From an uncultured Actinomycetes bacterium (GTDB taxonomy: Bacteria; Actinomycetota; Actinomycetes; Streptosporangiales; Streptosporangiaceae): a stretch of 64,000 nucleotides of DNA. Position numbers and translations under genes: made by a program. Under the pieces are notes generated by a model that was not told where the DNA came from, made no database searches, and was given only the letters and a program-made list of their open reading frames with translations. The stretch is taken from positions 1 through 64,000 of the forward strand of contig CAWIMG010000021.1 in the NCBI GenBank assembly GCA_963837105.1. The letters run 5' to 3'. This document shows positions 46,493-64,000 of the stretch, piece after piece (positions within the stretch are counted from its first letter, which is position 1; each line of letters starts with the position of its first letter).

Positions 46493-46502
46493 CGGGTGAG
46501 TC

Positions 46503-47951: not shown

Positions 47952-48107
47952 GTCGTGGTTGTGGCCATCACGTCGCAAGAACGACGTGGCTGCGGCAACC
48001 ATGACGTAGCAGGCCGGGGCGGGGCGGGCACCGGAGGCCTGGAGAGTGCCGCTGGGGGGCGCGCCGCGCCGGTAGGCTGAGGGCTTCAGCACCGGGAGGA
48101 AACGATC

Positions 48108-50859: not shown

Positions 50860-50882
50860 CCGGACGGGGCGCCCTGCGCCGG

Positions 50883-52058
50883 CTAACTGCGGGGGCCGAA
50901 CTGCTCCGCCTGCCGCTGGACCGCCGCGACCTCCTGCTCCACCTGTGCGAGCTCTTCGTGCGTGCGGGCCGCCTGCTCCGCGACCGCCTCCTCCGCCCTG
51001 CCGAGGTCAGGCTCCCCGCCCGCAGCCTGATCCCCGTTCGCGGCCGGGCCAGGCTCCGCTCCCCGGGCATCGGTGAGGGCTGCGGAATCGGCGTCGGGGA
51101 GGGCCGCGGGGGTGGCGGCCATCTGGCCGGGCAGGCCGGGCCCAGTGGGCGTGGCCTGCGGCGTGCCTGGCTGGCCCGCGCTGTCACCGGCGAACGCGCC
51201 GCTCAGCGTCTTCAGCGCCGATGTCACCTCGCTCGGGATCACCCAGAACGTGTTGCCTTCCGACTGCGCGATCTGGGGCAGCGTCTGCAGGTACTGGTAG
51301 GCGAGGACCTTGGCATCCGCGTTGTTGAGATGCACGGCCTGGAACACCGTGCCGATCGCCTGCGCCTGGCCCTCGGCACGCAGGATCTGGCTCTGCCTGT
51401 CACCCTCGGCGCGCAGGATGCTGCTCTGCTTCTCGCCCTCCGCGGTCAGGATCTTGGACTGGCGCACCCCTTCGGCGGTGAGGATCGCCGCGCGCTTCTC
51501 CCGCTCGGCGCGCATCTGCTTCTCCATCGCGTCCACGACGCTCTTGGGCGGCTCGATCGCCTTGATCTCCACCCTGCTCACCCGGATGCCCCACTTGCCG
51601 GAGGCCTCATCGAGCACCCCGCGCAGCATGTTGTTGATCCGGTCCCGCGAAGTCAGGGTCTGCTCCAGGTCCATGGAGCCGATCACGCTGCGCAGCATGG
51701 TGGCGGTGAGCTGCTCGATCGCCTGGATGTAGTTGACGATCTCGTAGTCGGCAGCCCGGGGGTCGGTGACCTGAAAGAACAGCACCGTGTCGATGAGCAC
51801 GACCAGGTTGTCCTCGGTGATGACCGGCTGGCTCTTGAAGGCCACCACCTGCTCACGGAGGTCGATCAGCGGCTTGACCCGGTCCACGAACGGGATGATG
51901 AAGTTCATCCCCGGCTGCAGGGTCTTGCGGTACCGGCCGAAGCGCTCGATGTTGCGCGCCCGCGCCTGCGGGACGATGCGCACCGTCTTGACCACGAACA
52001 TGACCATCAAGATGACCACGATGACCGCGACGACGGCCGCGACTATTGCTGTTTCCAT
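50883..52058 (-). CDS. SPFH/Band-7 (stomatin/HflC-like) protein
   Basis: N-terminal TM plus SPFH domain; C-terminal low-complexity tail. Confidence 0.8.
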   Translation of the reverse strand: METAIVAAVVAVIVVILMVMFVVKTVRIVPQARARNIERFGRYRKTLQPGMNFIIPFVDRVKPLIDLREQVVAFKSQPVITEDNLVVLIDTVLFFQVTDPRAADYEIVNYIQAIEQLTATMLRSVIGSMDLEQTLTSRDRINNMLRGVLDEASGKWGIRVSRVEIKAIEPPKSVVDAMEKQMRAEREKRAAILTAEGVRQSKILTAEGEKQSSILRAEGDRQSQILRAEGQAQAIGTVFQAVHLNNADAKVLAYQYLQTLPQIAQSEGNTFWVIPSEVTSALKTLSGAFAGDSAGQPGTPQATPTGPGLPGQMAATPAALPDADSAALTDARGAEPGPAANGDQAAGGEPDLGRAEEAVAEQAARTHEELAQVEQEVAAVQRQAEQFGPRS

Positions 52059-52060
52059 GA

Positions 52061-52498
52061 CTACTCCCTGGGATGGACAAGCGCGGTGGCGCCCTCGATC
52101 GCAAGGACGTCAACCTTGGAGCCCTCGGAGATGACCGAGGACTCGTCGTAGGAGCGTGCCGACCAGATCTCGCCGCCGATGCGGACCCGCCCATGAAGCG
52201 GCGTGACTTCCTCGGTCACGATGGCGGACCGCCCGACCAGGGCGGACGTCCCGCTCTTCAGCAGCGGCGGCTGCCGGATGTGCCGCACCGCTAGCGGCCG
52301 CACGATGCCGAGACCTGCCCCGGCCGCGACAACGAAGGTGATGAGCTGAAAGGGAAGGCCCAGGCCCACCGCGCCGACGATGGCCGCTGCCGCCGCCGCG
52401 ACGGCCAGCAGGCCGAAGGCCAGCGTTGTCGTCAGGACCTCGGCAACGCCCAGCACCGCGGCCAGGATCAGCCAGACAATCCACCACTCCATGGTCAC
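52061..52498 (-). CDS. NfeD-family membrane protein (OB-fold)
   Basis: TM helices plus OB-fold (TPLHGRVRIGGEIWSARS); 3-bp gap to the SPFH gene, the classic operon arrangement. Confidence 0.8.
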   Translation of the reverse strand: MTMEWWIVWLILAAVLGVAEVLTTTLAFGLLAVAAAAAAIVGAVGLGLPFQLITFVVAAGAGLGIVRPLAVRHIRQPPLLKSGTSALVGRSAIVTEEVTPLHGRVRIGGEIWSARSYDESSVISEGSKVDVLAIEGATALVHPRE

Positions 52499-52750
52499 CC
52501 CCGGAGCGGGTGCCCGAGCAGCCAGTCCACCCGTGCGCGGACGCGCGGCTCTCCCGCGTCCCTGTACTGACAGTAACCCCCCGGTGCCGCGCCCACACCA
52601 TTGACCATTGCTGACGGCGCGGAGCCGCTATCCGTTCACCTACCGCTCTGCGGCGGCGGCCGGGCGCCGCGGCCACCGCTCCCGGTCCGTTTCCGGGCCT
52701 GGTATTCACAGCCGGCCGCGTGCGGGGCACCATGGTGCCACATGCCTGAT

Positions 52751-52782
52751 GGCCCACACCAGACTGAGGGCCCACACCAGAC
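52751..52782. repeat. Direct repeat GGCCCACACCAGAC, two copies with an 18-bp period, 35-65 bp upstream of the acyl-CoA synthetase start
   Basis: Read directly; an inverted repeat TACTG-A-CAGTA also sits at 52565-52575 in the same divergent intergenic region. Confidence 0.5.
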
Positions 52783-52814
52783 GGGCCTGACGGGCCAAGC
52801 CAGAGGGGACTGAC

Positions 52815-54473
52815 ATGACCGGCGTCACGGAGCCGTCCTACAGTCACGGAGCGTCCGCAGTGCCGCTGCTGGGCGAGACGATCGGCGCCAACCTGCGCCG
52901 GGTCGCCGCCAGCTACCCGGATAACGAAGCGGTGGTGGACGTCCCCACCGGGCGCCGGTGGAGCTACGGCCAGCTGGATGCCGACACCGACACGCTGGCC
53001 CGCGGCCTGATCTCGGCTGGCCTGGCGGCCGGTGACCGGGTCGGCATCTGGGCGCCCAACTGCGCGGAATGGATACTGCTCCAGTACGCGACGGCCAAGG
53101 CCGGGATCGTGCTGGTGAACATCAACCCGGCCTACCGCAGCCACGAACTGGCGTACGCACTGAGGCAGTCCGGGGTGCGGCTGCTGGTGTCCGCCGAGTC
53201 GTTCAAGACCAGCGACTACCGGGCGATGGTGACCGAGGTGCGGGGCGGGCTCGACCGGCTGGAAAAGGTGGTCTACCTCGGGTCACCGGACTGGCAGGCA
53301 CTGGCCGCCGGGCCGGCCCCGGCCGCGGGCGAGCCGGACCCGCTGGCCGCCCGCGAGGCGGCCCTGTCCTTCGACGACCCGATCAACATCCAGTACACCA
53401 GCGGGACCACCGGCTTCCCCAAGGGTGCCACCCTGTCCCACCACAACATCCTCAACAACGGTTTCTTCATCGGCGAGGGCTGCCGCTACACCGCGCAGGA
53501 CCGGGTCTGCATCCCGGTGCCGTTCTACCACTGCTTCGGCATGGTGCTGGGAAACCTGGCCTGCACCACGCACGGGGCCTGCATCGTCATCCCCTCCCCC
53601 GGCTTCGAGCCGGCCGCCGCCCTGGCCGCGGTCCAGGCCGAGCGCTGCACCTCGCTGTACGGGGTGCCGACCATGTTCATCGCGGAGCTGGCACTGCCCG
53701 GTTTCGCCGACTACGACCTTTCCACCTTGCGGACCGGGATCATGGCCGGGTCGCCATGCCCGGTGGAGGTGATGAAACGCGTGGTCAGCGAGATGCACAT
53801 GACCGAGGTGACCATCTGCTACGGGATGACCGAGACCTCCCCGGTGTCCACCCAGACCACCGCGGACGACGACATGGACCGGCGGGTCTCCACCGTCGGC
53901 CGGGTGCACCCGCACGTCGAGGTGAAGATCGTCGACCCGGAAACCGGCCTGGTGCTTCCCCGCGGCACGGCCGGTGAACTGTGCACCCGCGGTTACTCGG
54001 TCATGCTCGGCTACTGGGACGACGCGGCGCAGACCCGGTCGGCGATCGACGCGGCCCGCTGGATGCATACCGGTGACCTGGCGGTGATGGACGCCGAGGG
54101 CTATCTGAACATCGCCGGCCGGATCAAGGACATGGTCATCCGGGGCGGCGAGAACGTCTACCCGCGCGAGGTGGAGGAGTTCCTGTACGCGCACCCGGCG
54201 ATCGAGGACGTCCAGGTGATCGGGGTTCCCGACAGCCGCTACGGGGAGGAACTGTGCGCCTGGGTCAAGCTGCGCCCGGGCGCCACGCTCAGCCCGGACG
54301 AGCTGCGGGAATTCTGCTCCGGCCAGATCGCCCACTTCAAGATCCCGCGGTACCTGCGGATCACCGACGAGTTCCCGATGACGGTGACCGGGAAGGTGCA
54401 GAAGTTCAAGATGCGGGAGGTCTCGATCGCCGAACTCGACCTGGCCGAGGCGGGCCGCACCCGCACCGCCTGA
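52815..54473 (+). CDS. AMP-dependent acyl-CoA synthetase/ligase
   Basis: [12 protein letters not shown] (AMP-binding motif I); 552 aa. Confidence 0.85.
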
Positions 54474-54526
54474 CCCAGCCACCGGCACAGCCTGGCCCGG
54501 CCGCCCGCGCCGGTCAGCCGGGCCGC

Positions 54527-54748
54527 TCAGACGGTGGACGGGTCCGGGCTAGCCGCCAGGCTGGCGAGCAGGGTCTGAGTGGCGGCACTGATGGCGTCCA
54601 CCGCACGGTTGAATGCTTCTTCGTTGGCCGGATTCGGAAGACGGAAGCCCCCCACCGTCCGCACAAACTGGAGCGCGGCCGCTCGTACGTCCTCATCGGT
54701 TACCCCAACGGCATACGGTGCGCGCAGAGTCTTGATGTTGCGGCACAT
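54527..54748 (-). CDS. DUF2277-family small protein
   Basis: MCRNIKTL...AALQFVR.V.G conserved actinobacterial family. Confidence 0.55.
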   Translation of the reverse strand: MCRNIKTLRAPYAVGVTDEDVRAAALQFVRTVGGFRLPNPANEEAFNRAVDAISAATQTLLASLAASPDPSTV

Positions 54749-54797
54749 GGGATGACGTTACGCCTGCCTAGCGGGCAAGGGTGAGCGGTGGCGCAAA

Positions 54798-55181
54798 TCA
54801 GCCGGACGGGGCGATCCGCACCCCGAGCGGCAGGAGTGAGATCGGAATGATCTTGAAGTTGGCGAGGCCGAGCGGGATGCCGATCACGGTCAGGCACAGC
54901 AGCACCCCGGTCACCAGATGGCCGATGGCCAGCCACCAGCCGAACAGCACAATCCAGAGGACATTGCCGATCAGCGAGCCCACGCCGGATTCCCGGCGCG
55001 GGGTGATGGTCCGGCCGAACGGCCACAGCACGTAGTTCGCGATCCGGAACGCGGCGATGCCGAACGGGATCGTGATCACCAGGAAGAACAGCAGGAAGCA
55101 GAGCAGGCCCGCCACGGCGTAGGCAATCGCCATCCACAGGCCGCAGAGCACCAGCCAGATCAGGTTCAGGATCATCCGCAC
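54798..55181 (-). CDS. YccF/DUF307 inner-membrane protein
   Basis: Duplicated YccF repeat: WLVLCGLWMAIAYAV... and WIVLFGWWLAIGHLV... Confidence 0.7.
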   Translation of the reverse strand: MRMILNLIWLVLCGLWMAIAYAVAGLLCFLLFFLVITIPFGIAAFRIANYVLWPFGRTITPRRESGVGSLIGNVLWIVLFGWWLAIGHLVTGVLLCLTVIGIPLGLANFKIIPISLLPLGVRIAPSG

Positions 55182-55191
55182 GGAATCGCCC

Positions 55192-55830
55192 CTAGTCGCG
55201 GTGGCCGGTGAAGGCGAGGGTCAGGCCGAGGCCGATCATCGCCAGCCCGCCGAGGCCGCCGACCAGGGCCAGCCGCTGCGGGGAGCGGGCGAACCAGGCA
55301 CGAACCCCGCTGGCCGCCAGGCCCCAGGCACTGTCACAGATCAGCCCGATGGGCAGTGACACCAGGCTGAGCAGCAGCAACTGGACCGGCACGTGCCCGG
55401 CCGCCTGGTTGGCGAACTGTGGCAGCACCGCCGCGAACAGGATGTAGGCCTTCGGGTTGGTGACGCCGACCAGGAACCCCTCGCTGGCCGCGCGGCGGTC
55501 ACCGCGTGGCGCCACTGCCACCTCCAGTGCCACGCCGAGGGAGTGCCGGTGCCGGATCGCCTGAATGCCGAGCCAGGCCAGGTAGGCCGCACCCAGCAGC
55601 TTGATGACGGTGAACGCCGCGGCTGACTGCTGCACGAGCGCACCCACACCCAGCGCGACGCTGATCGCGACCACCTGCACGCCGAGAACGTTGCCCACGA
55701 CCGAGGCCAGTGCCGTCCGGCGGCCATGCGCCAGCGCCCGCCCGACCACGAACAGCACGCTCGGCCCAGGGATGGCGATCACGATCAGGCAGGTGAGGGT
55801 GAACCCGAGGAACTGGCCTGCCGATATCAT
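55192..55830 (-). CDS. LysE/RhtB-family amino-acid efflux protein
   Basis: 212 aa, six TM helices; N-terminal FLGFTLTCLIVIAIPGPSVLFVVGRALAHGRR is LysE-type. Confidence 0.8.
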   Translation of the reverse strand: MISAGQFLGFTLTCLIVIAIPGPSVLFVVGRALAHGRRTALASVVGNVLGVQVVAISVALGVGALVQQSAAAFTVIKLLGAAYLAWLGIQAIRHRHSLGVALEVAVAPRGDRRAASEGFLVGVTNPKAYILFAAVLPQFANQAAGHVPVQLLLLSLVSLPIGLICDSAWGLAASGVRAWFARSPQRLALVGGLGGLAMIGLGLTLAFTGHRD

Positions 55831-55983
55831 CGGGCCACCCTACCCGCCAGGGCCGGTCGTGCCCACCACGGCGGCGAGGCCCAACTGTGGCCTGGCCGCG
55901 GCCGCCGGGCGACAACCGGAGCGCTCTGACCGACGTCATAAGTGTCAGTTGGCTCATGGAGCCACCCAGCACGAGGGACCCCG

Positions 55984-56604
55984 ATGACTGCATTCGCACG
56001 CACCGCCCGGCACCTGACCGTGGCCGCCAGTCTCAGCTTCGCCGCGGCACTGGCCGCTGGCTGCGGCTCCAGCCCGAGCCCCGCCCCCACCCATACGGTC
56101 ACCATCACCCCGCACGCCTCGGCCAGTTCGCCCAGCGCGGCGCCCGCGAGCAGCACGGCGGCACCGTCCTCCCAGGCGTGCGCGACCAGTTCGCTCGGGG
56201 TCAAGCTCGGCCTGAGCCAGGGCGCGGCCGGCAGTGTCTACCAGGCGATCGATTTCACCAACACCTCGAGCGTGACCTGCACGCTCTACGGCTACCCAGG
56301 GGTCTCGGCCGGGAACGGGCAGCCGTTCACCCAGGTGGGCCTGGCGGCCTCGGAGACGCCGACCCCGCCGCGGAAATTGGTGACCCTGGCCCCCGGCGGG
56401 GTGGCCAACGCGCTGCTGCGGGTGGTGGACGCGGGCAATTACCCGCCGAACAAGTGCGCCATGGTGCCGACGAAATCGCTGCGGATCTTCCCGCCGAACC
56501 AGACCGTTCCGGTCTACCTGCACTACAGCACCCAGATGTGCGGCAAGCCGGTGCAGACCATGTCGGTCAGTGTGGTCCAGCCGGGCAGCGGCGGCAACGC
56601 CTGA
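55984..56604 (+). CDS. DUF4232 lipoprotein
   Basis: Lipobox LAAGC; DUF4232 pattern C..S.L...G..G....I.FTNTS...CTLYGYPGV. Confidence 0.65.
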   Translation: MTAFARTARHLTVAASLSFAAALAAGCGSSPSPAPTHTVTITPHASASSPSAAPASSTAAPSSQACATSSLGVKLGLSQGAAGSVYQAIDFTNTSSVTCTLYGYPGVSAGNGQPFTQVGLAASETPTPPRKLVTLAPGGVANALLRVVDAGNYPPNKCAMVPTKSLRIFPPNQTVPVYLHYSTQMCGKPVQTMSVSVVQPGSGGNA

Positions 56605-56628
56605 CTGACCCTCACGAGCTTGGCCCAG

Positions 56629-58969
56629 TCAGTTCCCGCGGATGGCTGAGGCGAACGTGACCACGTAGTCCTCTTGGGTGATGGTCTCCAGCGCGCGGGG
56701 GCCGCGTGCGGTCCGGACTGCCGCGATGGCTGCTTCCGCCGGCATCCCGCCAGCGACGAGGAAGCATGCGGCGATCGTTCCGCTGCGGCCGAGCCCGCCC
56801 ATGCAGGTCACTACCACTGCCTCGCCTCGCTCCGTTCCCTGGCGGCACCACCGCACGAGATCGATGGCGTCGGCGACATCGGGGGTGCCCTGGTCGGGGA
56901 CGGGGAGACGGCGGTAGGTGAGGCCGGCGGCCAGGGCGCGGGGGCCGAGGTCGGGGACGCCCACCCAGCCGAGCTCGGAGTCGGTCAGCAGGCTCAGGAG
57001 CCGGGTGACCCCCTCGGCCCGGAGCTGGGCCAGATCGGCGCCCAGGTCGCGGCCCCGGTCGCGGCGGCCGGGGCACAGGGTGATGCCGAGCCTGCCCGCG
57101 CCGGTCAGGCCCGGTTCAATCCAGCCCACCCGCAGGGCGAGTCCGGCTTCGACGGTGCGGGTGATCTGCTCGGCGAGCGAGCAGGCGGCCGCCAGCGCCG
57201 ACTGCTTCTGGAGCGGGGACGCTTCGGGGAAGCTGAGCGTGTGGGCTGCGTAACGCAGCAGCGCCACCTGGAGCTGCAGCGGGTGCCGGTCTTCCCGGCA
57301 TAGCCGGCCGCCGATCCGGCGCACCACCTGGAGCACCTCCCACGCCCGGAGGAACTGGGGGGAGCGCAGCTCGCCCGGGCGGTCGGGGAGTTCGGCCTGG
57401 AGGTCGGCGACCGATCTGAGGGCGCGGGTGATGGCGAGGGCCTCTCGTAGCTGGGGGGCATTCTCGATGGGCGTCAGCAGGTAGAGCAGGTCGTTCTCGA
57501 ACTTGGCCAGATCTTTCAGCACGTGCCCGGGGGCGGCGTGGAAAAAGTCGATGACCCAGACGTTGTGGTGGGAGTCGATCAGGATGTTGGCAGCGTTGAG
57601 GTCGCCGTGGACGTAGGCCACGTAGTGGTAATCGTGCGCTGGCAGCCGGTGGTGGGCCAGGAAGTCCTCGTAGAACTCGCAGACGTTGGGCAGCGATGTC
57701 CCCCCCGGGGAAGTCGAGCCTCTTCTGGCCCGAGCCAGCCGTGACGGCGGTGACAGCGCTGCGGACGGCCGGCCCAAGCCGGGGAGAGAACTGATAGTGC
57801 TCGAACAGGGGCATCCGCTCGTAGCGGGCCGCCGCGTACAGCGGGCCGAGGACGTCCTCGAACACGTTCCGGACCACGGAAATGATGCGGCGCGTTGCCG
57901 TATCGGCGGCGAACAGCGCCTGCAGCGTCCGGACCTGGCCGTGGCCCATATCGGCGTAGGCGTACTTGAGCCCGGCCCGCTCGCCCAGGTCGGCGAAGCC
58001 GCGGACCCGGGGGGCGTTGTTACCGAGCACGTCCTCGATGTGCTCGAAGGCGGCCCGCTCCTGGGCGATGGCCCGGTTCGGGCCCAGCTTCACCACGGCT
58101 GGCGCCTGGCGGTGCCCCAGCGCGTCCTGACTCGTCGCCCGCCACACCAGCGCCCCTGAGTAGCCACCGGAAATCGGCTCCAGATCCACCTGGGTGCTGT
58201 CCCGGAACAGGTGGGCGACGATGGCGCGATCTGCGGGGCTGAGGGCTACATCGACATTGGCGCCTCCGATCCGGGGCTCGAAACCGGGCGGGTGATGGGG
58301 AAGGGCCAGCTCTGCCCCGGGCCGGAGCCAGTCGGCGAACTCAGCCGGGGAGTCGAAGCAGCGTACGCCGAGGAGCTTCCCGAGCTGGGCCAGGGCGTTG
58401 AAGTGCTGAGCGCGTGAGGCACTTGCGGTCAGGGCGCTGCAGGTCGCCAGCTCATCGATGCCGAGCCTGGTCTTCAGGTCGTAAAGCAGGAAGCTCACCT
58501 TGGCCTCGGTCCACACCCCGACAACGCCCACGCGCAACGGCTCATCGCCATGGGCGTGCCGGATCCGCGCGAGTTGCCGGGCCAGATTCGTCCCCTCAAA
58601 GTCGTTCAGTGTCAGCGAGTCGACGATCCGCTCGTTGGTGGCGGCCATGGCCCGCTCATCCATGCCCAGCACGAGCTGAGCCCCGGCGGAGCCCTTGAGG
58701 CAATGTGGCCCGAATCGCTCCAGATGCTCGCGCTGGGCGGGGTCGCCGGGGTCGTGCCAGTCCCGGATGTGGATGAGGTCGATCGCATCTGGGGCCAGGC
58801 CGCGGGCCCAGTCGATCAGCTGCGCCAGCGGCCCCGCCGACGGCTCAGGCCCAAGCAGGCGGGCCGCTTCGCTATAGCCAACATGCAGCAGGTTCGGCAG
58901 GGGATCGTGCGGGCCGATGGGATCGACAAAGTCGCGCTGAAGGCACTGCGCGATCAGGACCGTGGCCAT
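56629..58969 (-). CDS. Multidomain fusion: Cys-less nicotinamidase/isochorismatase-like domain, APH/CotS-like kinase, CDKN3/dual-specificity phosphatase; apparent frameshift near 57700
   Basis: N-terminus aligns with PncA (VLIAQCLQRDF, IRDWHDPGD...GPHC, VGVVGVWTEAKV). The middle carries a kinase N-lobe (LEPISGGYSGALVWR...AVVKLGPN) and a catalytic loop HGDLNAANILID...VIDF. The C-terminus has the PTP CX5R loop VVVTCMGGLGRSGT. It spans ORFs 57116..59002 and 56629..57777. Confidence 0.55.
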
Positions 58970-59083
58970 GGTCAGGGCACCAGGCAGAAACCACAAGGCC
59001 ACGGGAACTGGCCTAGCGCGGACACCGGCCGGATATTATCACCTCGTTCCGTGGCCGGTTTGGGTGGCGAGTAGGACTGGAAC

Positions 59084-62000
59084 ATGGGGGAGCCGCAGCA
59101 GGCAGGTGCCGCCGCCGCGCCGGGCGAGCAGGCCCCGGCGGGCCGGGCGGGTGTGATTCTGACGCCGGATCAGCGGGTGCGGGTGTTTGTTTCCTCGACG
59201 CTGGGGGAGCTGGCCGAAGAGCGGGCGGCGGCGAGGCGGGCGATCACCCGGCTGCATCTGGTGCCGGTGTGGTATGAGTCCGGGGCGCGCCCGCACCCGC
59301 CGCGGTCGATGTACCGGGCTTATCTGGCGCAGAGCCAGGTGTTTGTGGGCATCTACTGGCAGCGGTACGGGTGGGTGGCGCCGGGGATGGGCATCTCCGG
59401 GCTGGAGGATGAGTACCGGCTGGCGGCGGGCATGCCGATGCTGCTGTACCTCAAGCGGCCTGCCCCCGACCTGGAGCCGCGGCTGGCGGCGTTCCTGGAC
59501 AGCATCCGCGCGGCCGGGACGGTGTCGTACCGGACATTTGCCACGCCACGGGAGCTGGAGCGGCTGCTGGCCGATGACCTGGCCATCTTGTTGAGTGAGA
59601 GTTTTGCGGGCGCGGCGGCCGGCGCCGGGGTGCCGCGTGCGTCGGCAGGTGGGATGAGTGAGCCGGCGGAGCCGGACCTGCCGGCTGGGACGGTGACGTT
59701 CCTGCTGACCGACATTGAGGGGTCGACCCGGCTGTGGGAGACCGTGCCCGACGCGATGGAAGCAGCGCTGGAGGCGCACAACCGGCTGCTCACCAGCGTG
59801 ATCGAGGACCATGGCGGGGTGGTGGTCACCTCGCGGGGGGAGGGGGACAGTTTCTTCGCCGTCTTCCCCAGCGCGGTCGCGGCGGTGGAGGCGGCCGGTG
59901 CGTGCCAGCTGGCGCTCACCTCCGAGCCGTGGCCGGAGGGGGCGGTGCTGCGGGTGCGGATGGGGCTGCACACCGGCGAAGCGCGCTCACCAGGCAGTGA
60001 TCACGTTGACCACGGGCCGGTCAACCGGTGCGCCCGGGTGAAGGCGGCCGGGCACGGCGGGCAGGTGCTGGTCACCAAGACCACCTGCGACCTGGTGGAA
60101 GGCCGATTGGGCGGCGGCCTGGACCTCAAACGCCTCGGCGAGTTCCGGCTCCGCGACCTGGCCCAGCCCGAACTCATCTACCAGCTCACCCACCCCCACC
60201 TCCCCACCGACTTCCCCCCACTCAAGACCATCCATTCCGGCAACATCCCGCTGCGGGCCACCTCGTTCGTGGGACGTGCGGACGAGCTGCACGCGGTCGC
60301 CCAAGCGCTGGCACAGTCGCGGCTGGTGACGCTGACCGGCGTGGGCGGCGTGGGCAAGACCCGGCTATCGATCGAGGTCGCGGGCCGGGCGGTGGGCGAG
60401 TACCCCGATGGCTGCTGGTTCTGCGATCTGGCGCCGGCACGTGACGAGGACACGGTGCTGCGGATTATCGCGGCGTCGCTGGGTGCGGCCCTGCGCCCGG
60501 GCCTGTCCATCGCGGCGAGCATCACCGAGCACTGCCAGGCGCGTCAGATGCTGGTGGTTCTCGACAACTGTGAGCAGGTGCTCGACCCCGCTGCGCAGAT
60601 CGCGGGCGCCGTGCTCCGGGAATGCCCCGGGGTCCGCATTCTGGCGACGAGCCGTCAGGCTCTCGACATCGATGGCGAGCAGGTCTTCGCGGTCGGGACT
60701 CTGTCGGTCCCTCAGCCCGTCACTACGGCCGAGCGCATCGCGATGAGCGATGCGGTGCGCCTGTTTGCCGACCGTGCCGCCGCTGCCCGGCGGGGGTTCC
60801 AGCTCGATGAAGGTAGTGCGCAGGCCGCGGCCGAGATCACCCGGCGGCTGGACGGCATCCCGCTGGCGATAGAGCTGGCGGCGGCACGCGCGGCCGTGTT
60901 GCCGGTTCCCAGGATCGCTGCTCTCCTGGACGAGCGGTTCCAGCTGCTTACCGGTGGCCGGCGGAGCGCGCCGGAGCGTCATCAGACCCTGCGCGCCACG
61001 ATCGACTGGTCGTACAGTCTGCTGACCGGCGATGAACAGCGGGTGTTTGACTGCCTCGCCGTGTTCACGGGCTCATTCGACCTCGACGCCGTAGCGGCCG
61101 TCACCGGGGCAGCCCCCGGGGCATGGGTCGTTATCGACACGCTGGCGGCTCTGGTGTCGAAGTCTATGGTCGTACCCGACCAGAGCCACGGGGCCGAGGC
61201 GCGGTACCGGCTGCTGGAGACGCTGCGCCAGTATGCGCTCGAGAGGTTGCGGCAGCGTGGCGAACTGGACCTGGTGCAGCGCCGCCACGCGCAACACTTC
61301 GCGGCGTTTGCCCAGCAAGCTGGCACCGCGCTGCTCGGGCCCGACGAATTGGCATGGCGGCCGAGGTTGTCTGCCGAGCAGGACAATCTCCGCGCGGCCG
61401 TGCAGTGGGCCCTCGGCTCGGACTCACCTGATGACGGCGAGTCCGCCCTGGTTATCGCGGCCTCACTGGCAGCCTATGCCAGCTTCGATACGACTGGGGG
61501 ACTCGCCAGCCTGGTGGTGCAAGCCGTCGAGCGGGCGCGCGCCTCGTCACTGGCACAGCGGGTCTTGATTCTCGGAGCCGCGGCTTTTCATGCTTTCCAG
61601 GTCCGCGGCGACGTTCAGCTTTCTGAGCAGCTGGCGCGTGACGCTCTGCGTGATGGGGTCACCCCTGAGACCCCGGGCACGCAGGCATATGCCGCCTTGA
61701 TCCTGAGTCAGATCTTTACCGGCCGGCTGCCGGAAGCACAGGCAAACCTGCGCGAAGCGCTGCAGGCAACCGCGCAGGCTGGGGTAGACGATCGCCCACG
61801 TGCATGGATGCTGCAAACCTCGGCGGCAGTACGCGCCATCATGGGGGACATAGAAGATGCGCGGGAGAGCGCTGATGGCGCTGTTGCCCTAGCGCGCAGG
61901 ATTGGCAGTCCGTCCGAGCTGGCCGCGGCCCTGTGGACGGCGAGCCTGACCAGGGTTCGCGACGAGCCGGACGAGGCACTCGCGTTCGCGGACGAGTCAA

Positions 62001-62458
62001 TCGCGCTCACCCGGGCGGGCGCGAGCGGCTCGGTGCTGGGGCACCTGCTCCCGATCCGCGCTCAGCTGGGGGCAGCGAACGGCGACGCTGCCGGTGCCGT
62101 GCGCGACCTCCGCGAAGCCCTCACCTACACCCTGGACACGGGCGACAAGGTGATGCTGATGGTGGCGTTCGACCGCGGCATCAGCGTCTTCCACTTCCTG
62201 GGCCTTGCCGAACCAGCGGCCGTCCTGGCCGGAGTGGTGCTCCGTGGGCCACTTGCCGCGCTGAGCATCCTGCCGCAGGCGGAACGGCGCGACCGTGCAG
62301 TCCTTCTTGATCATGTAAGGGAACTCATCGGTGGCGACACCTACGAGCGCGACCTGACGCAGGGTGCGGCCCTGAGCGATGACGAAGTGGTGGCATACGC
62401 CCTTGAGCAGCTCGACATCGCGGAGAGCAGGAACCCGGCACCCGCTCCCGGCACCTGA
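59084..62458 (+). CDS. DUF4062 / class III adenylyl-guanylyl cyclase / NB-ARC (STAND) ATPase / TPR-repeat protein
   Basis: DUF4062 (RVFVSSTLGELAEER...YWQRYGW...GISGLEDEYRLA), cyclase CHD (VTFLLTDIEGSTRLWE...GEGDSFFAVF...RMGLHTGEA), P-loop GVGGVGKTRL, then a helical/TPR region; intact 1124-aa ORF. Confidence 0.8.
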   Translation: MGEPQQAGAAAAPGEQAPAGRAGVILTPDQRVRVFVSSTLGELAEERAAARRAITRLHLVPVWYESGARPHPPRSMYRAYLAQSQVFVGIYWQRYGWVAPGMGISGLEDEYRLAAGMPMLLYLKRPAPDLEPRLAAFLDSIRAAGTVSYRTFATPRELERLLADDLAILLSESFAGAAAGAGVPRASAGGMSEPAEPDLPAGTVTFLLTDIEGSTRLWETVPDAMEAALEAHNRLLTSVIEDHGGVVVTSRGEGDSFFAVFPSAVAAVEAAGACQLALTSEPWPEGAVLRVRMGLHTGEARSPGSDHVDHGPVNRCARVKAAGHGGQVLVTKTTCDLVEGRLGGGLDLKRLGEFRLRDLAQPELIYQLTHPHLPTDFPPLKTIHSGNIPLRATSFVGRADELHAVAQALAQSRLVTLTGVGGVGKTRLSIEVAGRAVGEYPDGCWFCDLAPARDEDTVLRIIAASLGAALRPGLSIAASITEHCQARQMLVVLDNCEQVLDPAAQIAGAVLRECPGVRILATSRQALDIDGEQVFAVGTLSVPQPVTTAERIAMSDAVRLFADRAAAARRGFQLDEGSAQAAAEITRRLDGIPLAIELAAARAAVLPVPRIAALLDERFQLLTGGRRSAPERHQTLRATIDWSYSLLTGDEQRVFDCLAVFTGSFDLDAVAAVTGAAPGAWVVIDTLAALVSKSMVVPDQSHGAEARYRLLETLRQYALERLRQRGELDLVQRRHAQHFAAFAQQAGTALLGPDELAWRPRLSAEQDNLRAAVQWALGSDSPDDGESALVIAASLAAYASFDTTGGLASLVVQAVERARASSLAQRVLILGAAAFHAFQVRGDVQLSEQLARDALRDGVTPETPGTQAYAALILSQIFTGRLPEAQANLREALQATAQAGVDDRPRAWMLQTSAAVRAIMGDIEDARESADGAVALARRIGSPSELAAALWTASLTRVRDEPDEALAFADESIALTRAGASGSVLGHLLPIRAQLGAANGDAAGAVRDLREALTYTLDTGDKVMLMVAFDRGISVFHFLGLAEPAAVLAGVVLRGPLAALSILPQAERRDRAVLLDHVRELIGGDTYERDLTQGAALSDDEVVAYALEQLDIAESRNPAPAPGT

Positions 62459-62527
62459 TCCGCAGAACGGCTGACGCCCTCGACCCTGGCAAAGTGGCCG
62501 GCTCAGGTGAAGCCGAGCCGATCGGCG

Positions 62528-63793
62528 TCACACCGCCTCGACGTGAGCCTGCAAGCCGGAGGCCGTTTGGCTTAGGGCTGCCGACACCGCCGCCACCACG
62601 TCGGCACCGGTGGGCGGGTGGAGGCCAGCGGCGAAGGCGGCCAGTTCGTCGAGGCGCTCAGCGAAGCGGAGCCAGGCCGAGCGGCGGTGCGGGAGCAGGA
62701 AGCTGGCCCGGTAGGGGAGCTGGAAGTTGGCTCCCGCCGTGACACCAGGGCGGTCGGGTCCCACTGGCAGGCGGGCGAGCAGGAGGCCGAGCGGCTTGAT
62801 GGCCCGGAACATCAGGCCGACGGCGGTATGGGCCAGGACCTGGCGCTGGGCGGGCGTCTCATGACCGAAAGCGAAGTAGCGCGCGATCATCTGCAGAATA
62901 AGCTCATACACCGCGTTGAACAGGTCGGAACACCCACCGGCGGCGGGGTCGGTGATGTAGACCTCCGGTTCGATCCCCTCCACCGCCCTCATCGCGGCGG
63001 CGACGACCGGGTAGGCGGGCTCGAAGCCCGGATCCTGCTTGCGCATCGCCCGGTAGTCATCGAGCACCGCGAGGAAGCGGCCGTAATGGGCATTTGCCCG
63101 GTCCCCCCTCGCCCCTTCCCCCTGCTCGACGATGCGCTCGATGGCCCGGTTGGTGCCATCCAGGTCGGTGATGGGGTGAAGGTCAGGCCAGCCGAAGGTC
63201 GTCTCGTCAGCCTGCTGGAACGCCGGGCCGATGAACAACCGGTCCGCGCCGAGCTTGTCCGCCAGGTGGCCGAAACCCCGCTCAATGGAGCGGTACAGGT
63301 GACCCACCGTGGCGAAATCCTGGCCCCGCGGAATGATCTCCTCTGGCCTCATCGGCTGGAGCGGCAGCCCGGCGGGCTGGAAGCCCGCCGCATCGGCGCC
63401 CTTCACCCCTTCCGGCCGCTCCAGGTACACAAAGTGCTCCAGCGCCGCCTCGCTGAACGGGAGCAGCCGCACCTGCACCCCGGGCGGGTAGCCCCTCGCC
63501 TGGTGCGGCATGTGGGGCCGGCTCACGTAGGGTGCGGACCCGACCGCGGTGAGCAGGTTCTGGACCACGGCCCAATGCAGCATCTCCTCGCGGGCGATGG
63601 TGAGGATCATTTTGCGCCAGCGCTCGACGGCCGCCACCTGATCCTGCCGGAGGCCGGGACCCGCAGTGCTCTTGAGACTGAACGCGGCGTAGAGGTACTC
63701 GCACATCAGGCCATGCTCAAGCTCAGCAGCCTGGGACAGAAGATACGTCAGCTCCTTGCGGTCCTCCACCACGATGGCCGGCTCGCTCACCAT
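62528..63793 (-). CDS. Ferritin-like (PF12902 / VioB N-terminal type) domain protein
   Basis: AELEHGLMCEYLYAAFSL...EEMLHWAVVQNLL, a di-metal four-helix-bundle signature; 421 aa. Confidence 0.65.
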   Translation of the reverse strand: MVSEPAIVVEDRKELTYLLSQAAELEHGLMCEYLYAAFSLKSTAGPGLRQDQVAAVERWRKMILTIAREEMLHWAVVQNLLTAVGSAPYVSRPHMPHQARGYPPGVQVRLLPFSEAALEHFVYLERPEGVKGADAAGFQPAGLPLQPMRPEEIIPRGQDFATVGHLYRSIERGFGHLADKLGADRLFIGPAFQQADETTFGWPDLHPITDLDGTNRAIERIVEQGEGARGDRANAHYGRFLAVLDDYRAMRKQDPGFEPAYPVVAAAMRAVEGIEPEVYITDPAAGGCSDLFNAVYELILQMIARYFAFGHETPAQRQVLAHTAVGLMFRAIKPLGLLLARLPVGPDRPGVTAGANFQLPYRASFLLPHRRSAWLRFAERLDELAAFAAGLHPPTGADVVAAVSAALSQTASGLQAHVEAV

Positions 63794-63870
63794 GGGAGAA
63801 ACGTATCGTCAGCGATGACCGCCCTCAACGGCGGGCAGACGGGCCACGGCAGGCATAACGGGCGCAGATG

Positions 63871-64000
63871 TCACCCGGGAAGATCTGGCTGGACGGGTTT
63901 CCCGGCGGCCAGGCTGAAGGCCTCGTCCGAGCTGAGTGCCATGCCCCCGGCGTGGGCTTGCTCGAATTGCTCCTGGCTCAGGTGGGCGCGCACCTGATCG
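63871..64000 (-). CDS. 3-prime end of a partial gene (C-terminus of an AfsR/TPR-type regulator-like protein); the rest lies beyond the window
   Basis: Minus-strand frame ends ...AHLSQEQFEQAHAGGMALSSDEAFSLAAGKPVQPDLPG*; the tail resembles the C-terminus of the 1124-aa protein. Confidence 0.3.
   Translation of the reverse strand, partial: DQVRAHLSQEQFEQAHAGGMALSSDEAFSLAAGKPVQPDLPG

What the first reader, a model, noticed from the sequence alone, without database searches (positions are those of the whole stretch)
56629..63793. Divergent pair: pseudo-nicotinamidase / kinase / phosphatase fusion facing a DUF4062 / cyclase / STAND NTPase / TPR protein, with a ferritin-like neighbour
Two very unusual multidomain proteins are divergently transcribed from a ~110-bp intergenic region (58970-59083) that carries GGCCACGG ... 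CCGTGGCC inverted repeats. One (~780 aa) combines a PncA-like domain, an aminoglycoside-phosphotransferase-like kinase and a CDKN3/DSP-type protein phosphatase. The other (1124 aa) has an N-terminal DUF4062 module, a class-III nucleotidyl cyclase and an NB-ARC/TPR STAND core. A nucleotide cyclase and a STAND NTPase, next to a domain that could sense a nicotinamide- or NAD-derived ligand and an opposing kinase/phosphatase pair, suggest a nucleotide- or NAD-centred signalling or conflict (defence-like) module. I know of no characterised system with this architecture. A standalone ferritin-like (VioB-N-type) protein and a second AfsR/TPR-like gene flank it.
Basis: partly seen in the sequence, partly recalled or inferred. 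Interest (0 to 1): 0.75.

Follow-up and report, generated by a model that had tools for sequence, protein, structure and literature searches.

The report
NAD-cleaving sensor genes with partner enzyme
A soil actinomycete carries NLR-like sensor proteins tipped with an NAD-cleaving domain, and beside them a widespread but unstudied three-domain enzyme (altered nicotinamidase, kinase, phosphatase) that in this bacterial group nearly always sits next to an NAD-cleaving gene, which suggests it senses or processes the products of NAD breakdown.

Summary
One correction: the ~780-aa minus-strand gene (A) is not an intact ORF here. A C4G7 run (57700-57710) shifts the frame, and removing one G restores a 779-aa protein 98% identical to an intact homologue.

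A has three parts:
- a PncA-derived domain that keeps the metal ligands but has a rewired catalytic triad;
- an APH-like kinase (Pfam TCAD9) that looks active;
- a KAP/CDKN3-like Cys phosphatase that looks active.

B has four parts:
- DUF4062, shown in 2026 preprints to be the TIR-like NADase "NIR", with its catalytic Glu intact;
- a class III cyclase;
- a STAND NTPase;
- TPR repeats.

B is therefore an NLR/Avs-like sensor, not an AfsR regulator. A second paralogue begins at the window's end, just past the ferritin-like gene.

In 26 of 31 actinobacterial-type loci, A lies next to a TIR-like NADase gene: 18 DUF4062-STAND in all four orientations, and 8 CAP12/PycTIR-like. In other phyla it has no constant neighbour. 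The link is not reciprocal, and one relative has deleted A but kept B.

Best reading: a variable NAD-centred conflict islet in which A is a dispensable accessory that handles NAD-derived small molecules. The mechanism is inferred, not shown.

The parts
57707..58969 (-). Gene A, 5' part (codons 1-421). It holds the PncA-derived domain (aa 1-~215, about 58325-58969) and the N-lobe/first half of the TCAD9/APH-like kinase.
   Evidence: ORF and GC3 frame. Pfam Isochorismatase 49-196 and TCAD9. PhPncA Zn ligands D52/H54/H71 align with A D70/H72/H89; catalytic D10->C9, K94->N112, C133->K157. C9, D70, H72, H82, H89, C90, K157 and the kinase residues K294 and E304 are invariant in 35 homologues from many phyla.
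57700..57710 (-). C4G7 homopolymer at which gene A changes frame (one G too many).
   Evidence: Sequence. Deleting one G gives a 779-aa protein 98% identical to intact P0001. L081 has G6. dN/dS downstream of the shift is 0.27, so there is no decay. Frameshifts at varied positions of A occur mostly in 'MFD' MAG loci.
56629..57706 (-). Gene A, 3' part. It holds the kinase catalytic half (HGDLNxxN, IDF; to about aa 600) and the KAP/CDKN3-like Cys phosphatase (aa ~612-779, about 56632-57135), plus the stop codon.
   Evidence: Pfam TCAD9 421-578, Tc-R-P/PTP-SAK/CDKN3 627-747. PDB hits to KAP, SsoPTP and DUSP23. H454, D456, N461, D474, D692 and R728 are invariant and C722 is >=90% conserved.
58970..59083 (.). 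114-bp divergent intergenic region. It contains an AT-rich block (GGTGATAATAT on the minus strand, 59033-59043) and the GGCCACGG/CCGTGGCC repeats.
   Evidence: Sequence. Repeats. The AT-rich block and neighbouring bases are shared with L004, but the 8-mers are not. No sigma-70 consensus hit, and one terminator-like hairpin at 58996-59014 on the minus strand. No Rfam match.
59084..62458 (+). Gene B (1124 aa, identical to P0121). Domains: DUF4062/NIR TIR-like NADase (aa 33-114, 59180-59425); class III nucleotidyl cyclase (aa 202-358, 59687-60157); NB-ARC-type STAND NTPase with P-loop GVGGVGKT (aa ~395-644, 60266-61015); helical/TPR sensor (aa ~700-1124).
   Evidence: Pfam and NCBIfam. 100% match to P0121. 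E108 is invariant in 123/124 homologues and aligns with the mutated catalytic position of the KpSwz DUF4062 PDB chain 10wc. Cyclase residues D210, D255, N314 and R318 are conserved.
62528..63793 (-). Ferritin-like protein (PF12902, 421 aa, identical to P0256), co-directional with and 77 nt downstream of the P0173 paralogue.
   Evidence: Pfam E 3e-42 and a partial VioB match. Highly conserved family (82-94% identity in >120 clusters). Recurs next to A (L008, L014, L019, L001) and next to DUF4062-cyclase-STAND genes (L081, L082, L083, L087).
63871..64000 (-). 3' end (last 42 codons plus stop) of a second DUF4062-cyclase-STAND-TPR paralogue (P0173, 1085 aa). The gene runs off the window.
   Evidence: tblastn 100% identity for residues 1044-1085. 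Translation ends ...QPDLPG*. P0173 is on the same 113,609-bp public contig as B.

Best explanation
The region is a small, variable NAD-centred conflict (defence-type) islet. It sits between conserved core genes: DUF4232/LysE/YccF on one side and, by synteny with relatives, dapB/pepM16/pnp on the other.

B and its neighbour paralogue P0173 are NLR/Avs-like STAND sensors.
- A fast-diverging NB-ARC/TPR half would recognise a trigger (inferred).
- NTP-dependent oligomerisation would bring the N-terminal effector halves together (inferred from the STAND family).
[quoted passage not shown] This activity is shown for the family in 2026 preprints; here only the catalytic Glu is shown to be intact.
- The inserted class III cyclase would make a cyclic nucleotide. 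Its catalytic residues are intact; product and target are unknown.

Gene A is an accessory, not an essential partner. Its nicotinamidase-derived domain keeps the metal site that holds the pyridine ring but has a rewired triad (Cys9/Asn112/Lys157 in place of Asp/Lys/Cys). It most likely binds, and perhaps transforms, nicotinamide or a nicotinamide nucleotide. It is fused to an active-looking small-molecule-type kinase and an active-looking Cys phosphatase, which would add and remove a phosphate on a common substrate.

A is linked to two different NADase protein families, so its substrate or signal is more likely a shared NAD-derived small molecule (nicotinamide, ADP-ribose, a ribosyl phosphate) than a specific partner protein. 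Its role would be to buffer, terminate, or make irreversible the consequences of NADase firing. The direction is unknown.

The ferritin-like protein is a third recurrent accessory of unknown chemistry.
For: Shown here:
- B's domain order and scores.
- E108 is invariant in 123/124 homologues. It aligns with position 84 of the KpSwz DUF4062 PDB chain. That position is Ala in the deposited sequence, which fits the E97A, residues-15-to-C construct described in 10.64898/2026.05.01.722283.
- The cyclase keeps both metal Asp residues plus the Asn/Arg pair.
- B and P0173 are 80-100% identical over the first ~400 aa but only 25-46% identical in the NB-ARC/TPR half. The A-adjacent position carries a different sensor half in the close relative L081.
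- A's three domains are confirmed by Pfam, PDB sequence search and fold search. Putative catalytic and metal residues are invariant across phyla.
- In 26 of 31 loci with A >=60% identical, a TIR-like NADase gene lies within ~1.3 kb. Eighteen are DUF4062-STAND, found codirectional, divergent and convergent, some with a 4-nt gap. Eight are CAP12/PycTIR-like TIR. Four of the five exceptions have a cut flank.
- The two partner types interleave on the A tree.
- Fusions of the A core exist with ADP-ribosylglycohydrolase (P0502), HD (P0440) and a rubrerythrin-type ferritin-like domain (P0389).
- A's phosphatase domain is 39% identical to part of an ADP-ribosylglycohydrolase-family protein that lies beside WYL, HEPN and PD-(D/E)XK genes.
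- Presence/absence and inversion polymorphism occurs at one syntenic site.

From the literature:
- DUF4062 is an NADase and an effector of Avs/NLR-like defence proteins (10.64898/2026.09.04.749371).
- Accessory phosphatases that are dispensable for defence occur in NIR and related systems: Vesta VstB and Metis MisB.
- Rhodanese-phosphatase-superfamily domains are predicted to remove ribose-linked phosphates of ADPr derivatives (PMC9503650).
Against: - No experiment of any kind bears on these genes.
- The link is one-sided. Three of three B-like paralogues looked up have no A within 8 kb.
- B's 90% orthologue keeps its place while A is reduced to 48-nt and 101-nt relics. A is therefore not needed to tolerate B.
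- A is widespread with no NADase neighbour in 49 loci from other phyla. Its core function is therefore independent of these genes.
- The window's left flank is housekeeping, and few known defence genes occur near the related loci.
- A has no PADLOC match and is absent from phage, plasmid and viral-contig collections.
- A, the TIR neighbours and the ferritin-like protein are highly conserved rather than fast-evolving.
- A is frame-shifted in this very sequence.
- The substrate-specifying Lys of the cyclase is not evident.
Confidence: 0.5

Rival explanations
1. B (and P0173) work alone as single-gene NADase-STAND sensors. A is an unrelated NAD/nicotinamide-homeostasis or small-molecule signalling enzyme. 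Its adjacency reflects co-residence in a rearrangement-prone islet, or loose selection for co-inheritance, rather than a shared mechanism.
For: - PsAvs2-type NIR-STAND proteins defend as single genes.
- B-like paralogues commonly lack A.
- A is deleted in L086 while B is kept.
- A is conserved at 38-58% identity, with the same architecture and no constant neighbour, in Planctomycetota, Leptospira, Sericytochromatia, Bacteroidota and proteobacteria.
- A is absent from PADLOC.
Against: - Linkage survives four different gene orders and a swap between two NADase families across A sequences 62-86% identical to the window's. Chance or mere inertia explains this poorly.
- A's own domains and fusions point to nicotinamide/ADP-ribose chemistry.
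- 4-nt gaps between A and the STAND gene in L005, L018 and L025 suggest co-transcription.
Confidence: 0.25
2. The module is a housekeeping signalling device rather than an immune one. B would be a STAND-type adenylate cyclase regulator, like the mycobacterial cyclase-ATPase-TPR proteins, that reports stress or developmental cues through cAMP. DUF4062 would act as a regulatory or NAD-sensing domain, and A as a kinase/phosphatase in the same pathway.
For: - The cyclase/NB-ARC/TPR part resembles actinobacterial cyclase-STAND proteins. Several close relatives (P0130-P0140) show no DUF4062 hit.
- The best PDB matches of the cyclase are bona fide adenylate cyclases: GRESAG4 and Ma1120.
- The flanks are housekeeping.
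- Many paralogues per genome, and two-component or GAF genes nearby in L083 and L084.
Against: - The DUF4062 catalytic Glu is invariant.
- The family is experimentally an NAD+-depleting effector enriched near defence genes.
- The effector half is conserved while the sensor half diverges between paralogues, and presence/absence varies between close strains. Both are typical of immune receptors.
- Most A-linked STANDs have no cyclase at all.
- B has no DNA-binding output domain. The AfsR match covers only the NTPase, at 37.7 bits against a cut-off of 1430.
Confidence: 0.15
3. In this genome A is a real, recently inactivated pseudogene and the arrangement is a decaying remnant with no current joint function.
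For: - The frameshift at the G7 run.
- A has been deleted in a relative.
Against: - Apart from the single extra G, the gene is 98% identical to an intact homologue.
- dN/dS is 0.24 overall and 0.27 downstream of the shift.
- Homopolymer frameshifts at scattered positions in A are seen mostly in one family of MAG assemblies, which is the pattern of sequencing error.
Confidence: 0.07

Closest known systems
NIR (DUF4062)-effector Avs/NLR-like anti-phage proteins, e.g. PsAvs2 (bioRxiv 10.64898/2026.09.04.749371)
   Same: - N-terminal DUF4062 with a conserved catalytic Glu, a central STAND NTPase and C-terminal repeats.
- Predicted NAD+ hydrolysis to ADPR plus nicotinamide on activation.
   Different: - B has a class III cyclase inserted between the NADase and the NTPase.
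- Its NTPase is NB-ARC/AfsR-like with TPRs, not an Avs2 terminase sensor.
- It comes from an uncultured actinomycete.
- It sits beside a tri-domain enzyme and a ferritin-like gene that the NIR papers I could read do not mention.
Swarozyc (KpSwz) and Evangelion DUF4062 systems (bioRxiv 10.64898/2026.05.01.722283; 10.64898/2026.06.25.731849)
   Same: - The same NADase domain.
- B aligns to the solved KpSwz DUF4062 chain, with E108 at the catalytic position.
   Different: - Those are small DUF4062 proteins with other auxiliary regions, activated by a phage portal or replication proteins.
- They have no STAND, no cyclase and no A-like partner.
Vesta (NIR protein plus alkaline phosphatase VstB) and Metis (MisA plus HAD phosphatase MisB)
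   Same: An NADase-type effector gene tightly linked to an accessory phosphatase that is dispensable for defence. For Metis the phosphatase is thought to clear basal activator. This is a working analogy for A as a dispensable small-molecule-handling accessory.
   Different: - A is a far larger three-domain protein: PncA-like, kinase and Cys phosphatase of the rhodanese-phosphatase superfamily.
- It is unrelated in sequence to VstB and MisB.
- Its role is untested.
Pycsar / CBASS TIR effectors (PycTIR, Cap12; PF10137)
   Same: - The alternative A partner in eight loci matches these models strongly (PADLOC CBASS TIR effector E 8.5e-36, PycTIR 2.3e-26).
- B carries a nucleotide cyclase, as Pycsar does.
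   Different: - No PycC-type cyclase gene lies next to those TIR genes in the loci examined.
- B's cyclase matches PycC only at E 0.005.
- The window has no cNMP-receptor effector.
TCAD9 kinase domain of vWA-MoxR-VMAP ternary conflict systems (Kaur et al. 2020, PMC7159879)
   Same: A's kinase is a strong TCAD9 match (197 bits). That paper notes rare active APH-like kinases among effectors and expects them to phosphorylate small molecules.
   Different: - No vWA, MoxR or VMAP gene is near A in the window.
- Only 4 of 86 nearest neighbours in distant loci are MoxR-type ATPases.
Nicotinamidase PncA (isochorismatase superfamily)
   Same: - The fold (Foldseek TMt 0.62-0.69 to S. mutans and S. pneumoniae enzymes).
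- The DWH...H(C) metal-ligand motif.
   Different: - The catalytic triad Asp/Lys/Cys is replaced by Cys9/Asn112/Lys157.
- The Pfam score is below the gathering threshold (23.6 against 27).
- It is a PncA-derived domain, not a canonical nicotinamidase.
ADP-ribosylglycohydrolase plus rhodanese-phosphatase systems predicted to process ADPr (Iyer et al. 2022, PMC9503650)
   Same: - A KAP-like Cys phosphatase domain related to A's is embedded in an ARG-family protein next to WYL, HEPN and PD-(D/E)XK genes.
- One A-family protein is itself fused to ARG (P0502).
   Different: - Different overall architecture.
- No ARG in the window.
- The predicted ADPr-phosphate substrate is untested in either case.
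AfsR/SARP regulators and mycobacterial cyclase-ATPase-TPR-LuxR proteins
   Same: An NB-ARC-like NTPase plus TPR, and in the latter a class III cyclase.
   Different: B has no SARP/BTAD or LuxR DNA-binding domain. The AfsR model covers only the NTPase region, at 37.7 bits against a cut-off of 1430.

Membership tests
NIR/DUF4062-effector NLR-like (Avs-like) defence proteins | N-terminal DUF4062 domain | tested here: met
   PF13271 66.7 bits (cut-off 24.7), residues 33-114, full-length model match.
NIR/DUF4062-effector NLR-like (Avs-like) defence proteins | Conserved catalytic glutamate | tested here: met
   E108 is invariant in 123/124 homologues. It aligns with position 84 of KpSwz PDB chain 10wc, an Ala there. 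That fits the published E97A, residues-15-to-C construct. The numbering offset is my inference.
NIR/DUF4062-effector NLR-like (Avs-like) defence proteins | Central STAND NTPase and C-terminal repeat sensor | tested here: met
   P-loop GVGGVGKT. NB-ARC 23.1 bits (just under its cut-off of 23.5), AAA_16/22, HTH_77 in precomputed hits, TPR_12 26.2 bits (below its cut-off of 30.1).
NIR/DUF4062-effector NLR-like (Avs-like) defence proteins | NAD+ depletion and phage defence on activation | not testable with these tools
   Needs expression, a phage or trigger challenge, and NAD+ measurement.
NIR/DUF4062-effector NLR-like (Avs-like) defence proteins | Defence-island context | tested here: inconclusive
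   The left flank is housekeeping, and few known defence genes lie near related loci. However, the site shows presence/absence and inversion polymorphism between close relatives.
Class III nucleotidyl cyclase | Catalytic domain with two metal-binding Asp and the transition-state Asn/Arg | tested here: met
   PF00211 33.1 bits (cut-off 21.9). D210, D255, N314 and R318 are present and conserved in the family. Aligns to GRESAG4 and Ma1120 cyclases.
Class III nucleotidyl cyclase | Substrate-specifying Lys/Asp pair (adenylate) or Glu/Cys (guanylate) | tested here: inconclusive
   The Lys position falls in a 2-residue insertion (TSRGEGD). The nucleotide specificity cannot be read.
Nicotinamidase (PncA) | Isochorismatase-like fold with the Asp/His/His metal site | tested here: met
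   Foldseek hits to nicotinamidases. D70/H72/H89 align with PhPncA D52/H54/H71 and are invariant.
Nicotinamidase (PncA) | Catalytic triad Asp-Lys-Cys | tested here: not met
   D10->C9, K94->N112, C133->K157. The Pfam score is below the gathering threshold. A is therefore not filed as a nicotinamidase.
TCAD9 / APH-like kinase | Kinase fold with the ATP-binding Lys/Glu, HxDxxxxN catalytic loop and metal-binding Asp | tested here: met
   PF19974 197 bits (cut-off 40). K294, E304, H454, D456, N461 and D474 are invariant.
TCAD9 / APH-like kinase | Association with a vWA-MoxR-VMAP ternary system | tested here: not met
   None of the called genes at 43.8-56.6 kb or within the finding is a vWA, MoxR or VMAP gene. 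MoxR-type ATPase appears in only 4 of 86 nearest neighbours elsewhere.
KAP/CDKN3-like dual-specificity (rhodanese-phosphatase superfamily) phosphatase | C(X)5R P-loop and general-acid Asp | tested here: met
   C722-MGGLG-R728 and D692. Tc-R-P, PTP-SAK and CDKN3 are above cut-off. KAP TMt 0.86.
AfsR/SARP regulators | N-terminal SARP/BTAD DNA-binding domain | tested here: not met
   No such domain in Pfam. The NCBIfam AfsR match is 37.7 bits against 1430 and covers the NTPase region only.
Pycsar | PycC cyclase plus a cNMP-activated effector encoded together | tested here: not met
   PycC match only at E 0.005. No cNMP-receptor effector was found among the called genes at 43.8-64 kb of the window. 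The PycTIR-like genes occur in other loci that lack B-type cyclases.

The most novel reading that the evidence does not exclude
The tri-domain protein would be a new class of accessory to NADase-based immunity. A nicotinamidase-derived, metal-dependent module reads, or consumes, the nicotinamide released when a TIR-like NADase fires. It then toggles a fused kinase/phosphatase pair acting on an ADP-ribose- or ribosyl-phosphate-type metabolite. The outcome could be to reset the cell after a false alarm, or to deny phages the substrates of their NAD+-reconstitution pathways. In addition, the two convergent sensor genes may exchange sensor halves by inversion between their near-identical effector-encoding 5' halves.
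Probability: 0.3. Interest if true: 0.8.

Novelty: new variant of a known kind. Interest (0 to 1): 0.62.

Why it matters
NAD+ depletion by TIR, SIR2 and now DUF4062/NIR domains is a central theme of bacterial, plant and animal immunity. How cells sense, limit or lock in the products of NAD+ cleavage is still largely open.

This locus points to a widespread three-domain enzyme family for which I found no published description. About 240 representatives at 50% clustering score E <= 1e-30, from many phyla. Its sequence says 'nicotinamide-binding plus kinase plus phosphatase'. In actinomycetes it has stayed next to two different NADase families through repeated rearrangement.

That gives a concrete, testable candidate for a product-sensing or product-processing layer of NADase immunity. 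It also documents a common soil-actinomycete NIR-cyclase-STAND architecture that combines NAD+ cleavage with cyclic-nucleotide synthesis in one receptor.

Tried and rejected
1. The inverted repeats as an operator. They cluster locally but sit at chance level window-wide and are not conserved in other divergent loci. Rejected.
2. A riboswitch or other RNA in the spacer or UTRs. No Rfam match at E <= 1 across 56000-64000, and no tRNA at 40000-64000.
3. B as an AfsR-like regulator. It has no DNA-binding domain. Rejected.
4. A conserved partner of A outside actinomycetes. Pfam scans of 86 nearest neighbours, plus my own DUF4062 and TIR HMMs, found none.
5. A as a phage- or plasmid-borne gene. Only isolated phosphatase-domain hits turned up, and there were none in viral contigs.
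6. Structure of the ferritin-like protein. The AF2 model has pLDDT 47.6 and is too poor for a fold search. PDB sequence search found nothing, and literature on PF12902 was uninformative.
7. Homology between the rubrerythrin-like tail of P0389 and the PF12902 protein. hhalign found none, so that fusion supports only a loose 'ferritin-like' link.
8. Fetching the source contig beyond the window. P0121, P0173 and P0256 are not on record in the gene-position index.
9. The paper that named Tc-R-P and PTP-SAK. From memory this is Burroughs & Aravind 2023, NAR Genom Bioinform, but it is not held. I therefore cannot exclude that it already describes this fusion.
10. An apparent 1.1-kb insertion in A of L001. 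This was an artefact of the reported match span. The gene is intact, with a duplicated C-terminal fragment downstream.

Full report
**What is in the sequence**

The window is high-GC DNA (about 70%). Close relatives of these genes come mostly from uncultured soil Actinomycetota MAGs, several labelled Streptosporangiaceae.

B is an uninterrupted 1124-aa ORF on the plus strand at 59084-62458.

The ORF list shows a 628-aa ORF (57116-59002) overlapping a 382-aa ORF (56629-57777) in another frame. Third-position GC shows the coding frame switching near 57680. The switch falls at a C4G7 run (57700-57710).

Deleting one G gives a continuous 779-aa protein starting at ATG 58969. That protein is 98% identical, end to end, to an intact metagenomic protein, P0001. 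The near-identical contig L081 has G6 at this site. dN/dS between the repaired gene and L081 is 0.24, and 0.27 downstream of the shift.

Frameshifts at scattered positions of this gene occur in eight related loci. Seven of these are MAGs of one assembly series, 'MFD'. I therefore read the extra G as a probable assembly error. A very recent mutation cannot be excluded without reads.

**Gene A**

Pfam gives these matches:

| Model | Bits | Cut-off |
|---|---|---|
| TCAD9, an APH-like kinase | 197 | 40 |
| Tc-R-P | 45.9 | 27 |
| PTP-SAK | 43.6 | 27 |
| CDKN3 | 38.9 | 20.7 |
| Isochorismatase | 23.6 | 27 (not reached) |

An AlphaFold model of P0001 (mean pLDDT 77) matches three folds in the PDB: kinase-associated phosphatase KAP (TMt 0.86), streptococcal nicotinamidases (TMt 0.62-0.69) and APH(3') kinases (about 0.5).

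Sequence alignment to *Pyrococcus* PncA places A's D70, H72 and H89 on the Zn ligands D52, H54 and H71. The catalytic triad is replaced: Asp10 by Cys9, Lys94 by Asn112, Cys133 by Lys157.

I aligned 35 homologues from Actinomycetota, Planctomycetota, Leptospira, Sericytochromatia, Bacteroidota, Chloroflexota and proteobacteria (38-86% identity). The following residues are invariant, except C722 at >=90%:
- N-terminal domain: C9, D70, H72, H82, H89, C90, K157.
- Kinase: K294, E304, H454, D456, N461, D474.
- Phosphatase: D692, C722, R728.

The N-terminal domain is therefore not a canonical nicotinamidase. It is also not a decayed one. It keeps the site that holds the pyridine nitrogen in PncA (established knowledge of PncA) and has a new, strictly conserved set of polar residues. 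The kinase and the phosphatase both look catalytically competent.

**Gene B and its paralogue**

B has four parts:
- DUF4062 (66.7 bits);
- a class III cyclase (33.1 bits);
- an NB-ARC-type NTPase with an intact P-loop;
- TPR-like repeats.

The AfsR model matches only the NTPase part, at 37.7 bits against a cut-off of 1430, and there is no DNA-binding domain. B is therefore not an AfsR-type regulator.

Three 2026 preprints show that DUF4062 is a TIR-like NADase, renamed NIR. [quoted passage not shown] It serves as the effector of Avs and other NLR-like anti-phage proteins, and of Swarozyc, Evangelion, Vulcan and Vesta.

B's E108 (ISGLEDEY) is invariant in 123 of 124 relatives. It aligns with position 84 of the solved KpSwz DUF4062 chain. 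That position is Ala in the deposit, which fits the E97A, residues-15-to-C construct the authors describe. The numbering offset is my inference.

The cyclase keeps both metal-binding Asp residues and the Asn/Arg pair. It aligns best with genuine adenylate cyclases. Its substrate-specifying Lys cannot be placed.

B is identical to a public protein, P0121, on a 113.6-kb contig. The same contig encodes P0173, a second DUF4062-cyclase-STAND protein. The last 42 codons of P0173 lie at 63874-63999 on the minus strand, just past the ferritin-like gene.

B and P0173 are 80-100% identical over the first ~400 residues (NADase plus cyclase). They are only 25-46% identical over the NTPase/TPR half. A homogenised effector with a diversified sensor is the pattern expected of immune receptors.

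**Is the A-B pairing more than chance?**

I fetched 80 genomic loci encoding A homologues and clustered all neighbouring ORFs.

The only recurrent large neighbour is a DUF4062-STAND-TPR gene, present in 18 loci. Pfam confirmed it in L002, L005 and L011, and my own DUF4062 HMM confirmed it more widely. It occurs in every possible arrangement:
- downstream and codirectional, with 4-nt or overlapping junctions (L005, L016, L018, L025);
- upstream and codirectional (L003, L013, L021, L027);
- divergent, as in the window (L004, L008, L022);
- convergent (L002, L020, L049, L068).

Only L003 and L008 share B's cyclase.

In eight further loci the neighbour is instead a ~315-aa protein with a CAP12/Pycsar-type TIR domain (PF10137, E 3e-23). 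It matches PADLOC's CBASS TIR effector, PycTIR and PDC-S35 models.

Together, 26 of the 31 loci whose A is at least 60% identical to the window's have a TIR-like NADase gene beside A. Four of the five exceptions have a truncated flank. On a tree of A proteins the two partner types interleave. The partner has therefore been exchanged while the linkage was kept.

In the 49 loci from other phyla there is no DUF4062 or TIR neighbour and no constant partner. The few recurring neighbours are MoxR ATPases (4), nSTAND3 (2) and one ADP-ribosylglycohydrolase.

The link is not reciprocal:
- Three B-like paralogues on long contigs have no A within 8 kb. Two of them have the ferritin-like gene.
- L086 carries B's 90% orthologue in the same syntenic site (UbiA, Band7, acyl-CoA synthetase, YccF, LysE, DUF4232 | B | DapB, M16 peptidase). 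There A is reduced to a 48-nt and a 101-nt relic, and the ferritin-like gene and second paralogue are absent.
- L087 shares the window's arrangement on the DapB side.
- L081 has A intact but carries a P0173-type sensor half next to it, with the ferritin segment inverted.

The locus is thus a small variable islet between core genes. A is dispensable for keeping B.

**Further pointers to A's chemistry**

A full scan of 1.84 billion representative proteins finds about 240 family representatives at E <= 1e-30. The recurring core is the PncA-like domain plus the kinase (~600 aa). The phosphatase is an optional third domain.

Larger members carry extra domains:
- an N-terminal ADP-ribosylglycohydrolase (P0502);
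- an HD domain (P0440);
- a C-terminal rubrerythrin-type ferritin-like domain (P0389).

A's phosphatase domain is 39% identical to part of an ADP-ribosylglycohydrolase-family protein on a *Fuscovulum* plasmid. That protein is flanked by WYL, HEPN and PD-(D/E)XK genes. Iyer et al. predicted this type of system to process ADP-ribose derivatives, with rhodanese-phosphatase domains removing ribose-linked phosphates (PMC9503650).

A has no PADLOC match. It is absent from the phage, plasmid and viral-contig collections.

**How it most likely works**

Shown here:
- the domain identities;
- the intact catalytic motifs;
- the conserved, rearrangement-proof linkage of A to two NADase families in one bacterial group;
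- the presence/absence polymorphism.

Taken from the literature: DUF4062 is an NADase and an NLR-type defence effector.

Inferred:
- B and P0173 sense a trigger through their divergent TPR halves and oligomerise.
- Once assembled they cleave NAD+ and also make a cyclic nucleotide.
- A binds or transforms nicotinamide, or a nicotinamide nucleotide, at its metal site. It adds and removes a phosphate on an NAD-derived small molecule. This buffers, ends, or locks in the NADase response.

I favour a small-molecule target over phosphorylation of a partner protein for three reasons. The partners are two unrelated protein architectures that share only their chemistry. APH-fold kinases are typically small-molecule kinases. 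The family's own fusions are to ADP-ribose-handling domains.

The analogy with the dispensable accessory phosphatases of Vesta and Metis fits the finding that A can be lost.

I give this reading a probability of about 0.5. The main rival (0.25) is that A is an independent NAD-homeostasis enzyme with no direct mechanistic tie to B.

**Novelty**

B is a new architectural variant (NIR plus cyclase plus NB-ARC/TPR) of a kind described in 2026. The variant is abundant in soil actinomycete metagenomes: all 120 clusters listed for B are about 770 to 1600 aa long, and most carry this architecture at about 1100 aa.

I found no description of the A family or of its attachment to NADase genes in the literature I could search. 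The paper that introduced the Pfam names Tc-R-P and PTP-SAK could not be read, so prior description cannot be excluded.

I rate the finding a new variant of a known kind, with moderate-to-high interest. The interest comes mainly from the testable idea that A is a product-sensing or product-processing accessory of NADase immunity.

Noticed in passing
window 59084-60250 and 62438-64000; L081:1-4793; L087:6667-13605: The two convergent STAND paralogues (B and P0173) share near-identical 5' halves of ~1.2 kb in inverted orientation. Relative to the window and L087, contig L081 has the ferritin-like gene plus the P0173-type sensor half inverted, so that the sensor half is joined to the A-adjacent 5' half. 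This looks like an inversion by recombination between the inverted effector-encoding halves, which swaps sensor halves between two expression sites.
   Followed up: partly
L086:6870-7100 (syntenic with window 56629-59026): In a relative that keeps B's 90% orthologue and the same flanking genes, A is deleted. Two relics remain, matching window 56629-56676 and 56971-57071. The ferritin-like gene and the second paralogue are absent, and B is followed by an 84-aa ORF and dapB.
   Followed up: yes
L016, L022, L025, L036, L040, L068 (A gene): A is broken by frameshifts at different positions in these loci, all from MAGs of the 'MFD' assembly series. A in L020 (a MAG of the SMAG series) is also disrupted, by loss of residues ~621-683. 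This pattern suggests homopolymer sequencing errors rather than repeated pseudogenisation, and it bears on the G7 frameshift in the window.
   Followed up: partly
L017:10001-11833; proteins P0107, P0109, P0113, P0114, P0117, P0118, P0120, P0378 and others: A natural two-domain form of A (PncA-like plus kinase, ~600-620 aa, no phosphatase) is common. In L017 it sits next to the CAP12-type TIR gene and an HTH-NB-ARC-TPR gene.
   Followed up: partly
proteins P0502, P0440, P0389: Members of the A family are fused to ADP-ribosylglycohydrolase (P0502), an HD domain (P0440), or a C-terminal rubrerythrin-type ferritin-like domain (P0389).
   Followed up: partly
L006, L010, L012, L014, L015, L017, L026, L040 (about 315-aa gene next to A): The CAP12/PycTIR-like TIR proteins next to A are very highly conserved. 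They score 600-680 bits against an HMM built from these same proteins, so the scores overstate conservation somewhat. They have a ~180-aa C-terminal region with no Pfam match. An alpha/beta-hydrolase gene accompanies them in most loci of this group (six loci in the ORF clustering).
   Followed up: no
window 59033-59043 and 58996-59014: An AT-rich block (GGTGATAATAT on the minus strand) stands out in otherwise 70% GC DNA and is shared with L004. It could be the -10 element of one or both divergent promoters. A terminator-like hairpin with a U-rich tail lies in A's putative 5' leader, but its stem is not conserved in L004.
   Followed up: partly
L082:8001-19309: Two DUF4062-cyclase-STAND paralogues lie within 10 kb, with a ferritin-like gene directly upstream of the second. 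A Mu-type transposase/IstB gene and a recombinase-domain gene lie between and beside them. This suggests these receptors multiply and move with mobile elements.
   Followed up: no
L036:5891-6697 and 12463-12951: DUF4062-encoding sequences lie on both sides of A in this complete Acidimicrobiaceae chromosome. The downstream copy is a short fragment 146 nt after A.
   Followed up: no
window 43787-56604: The left flank consists of ordinary metabolic and membrane genes: penicillin amidase, amidase, dihydroxy-acid dehydratase, UbiA, Band 7, acyl-CoA synthetase, YccF, LysE and DUF4232. It is collinear with L086.
   Followed up: yes
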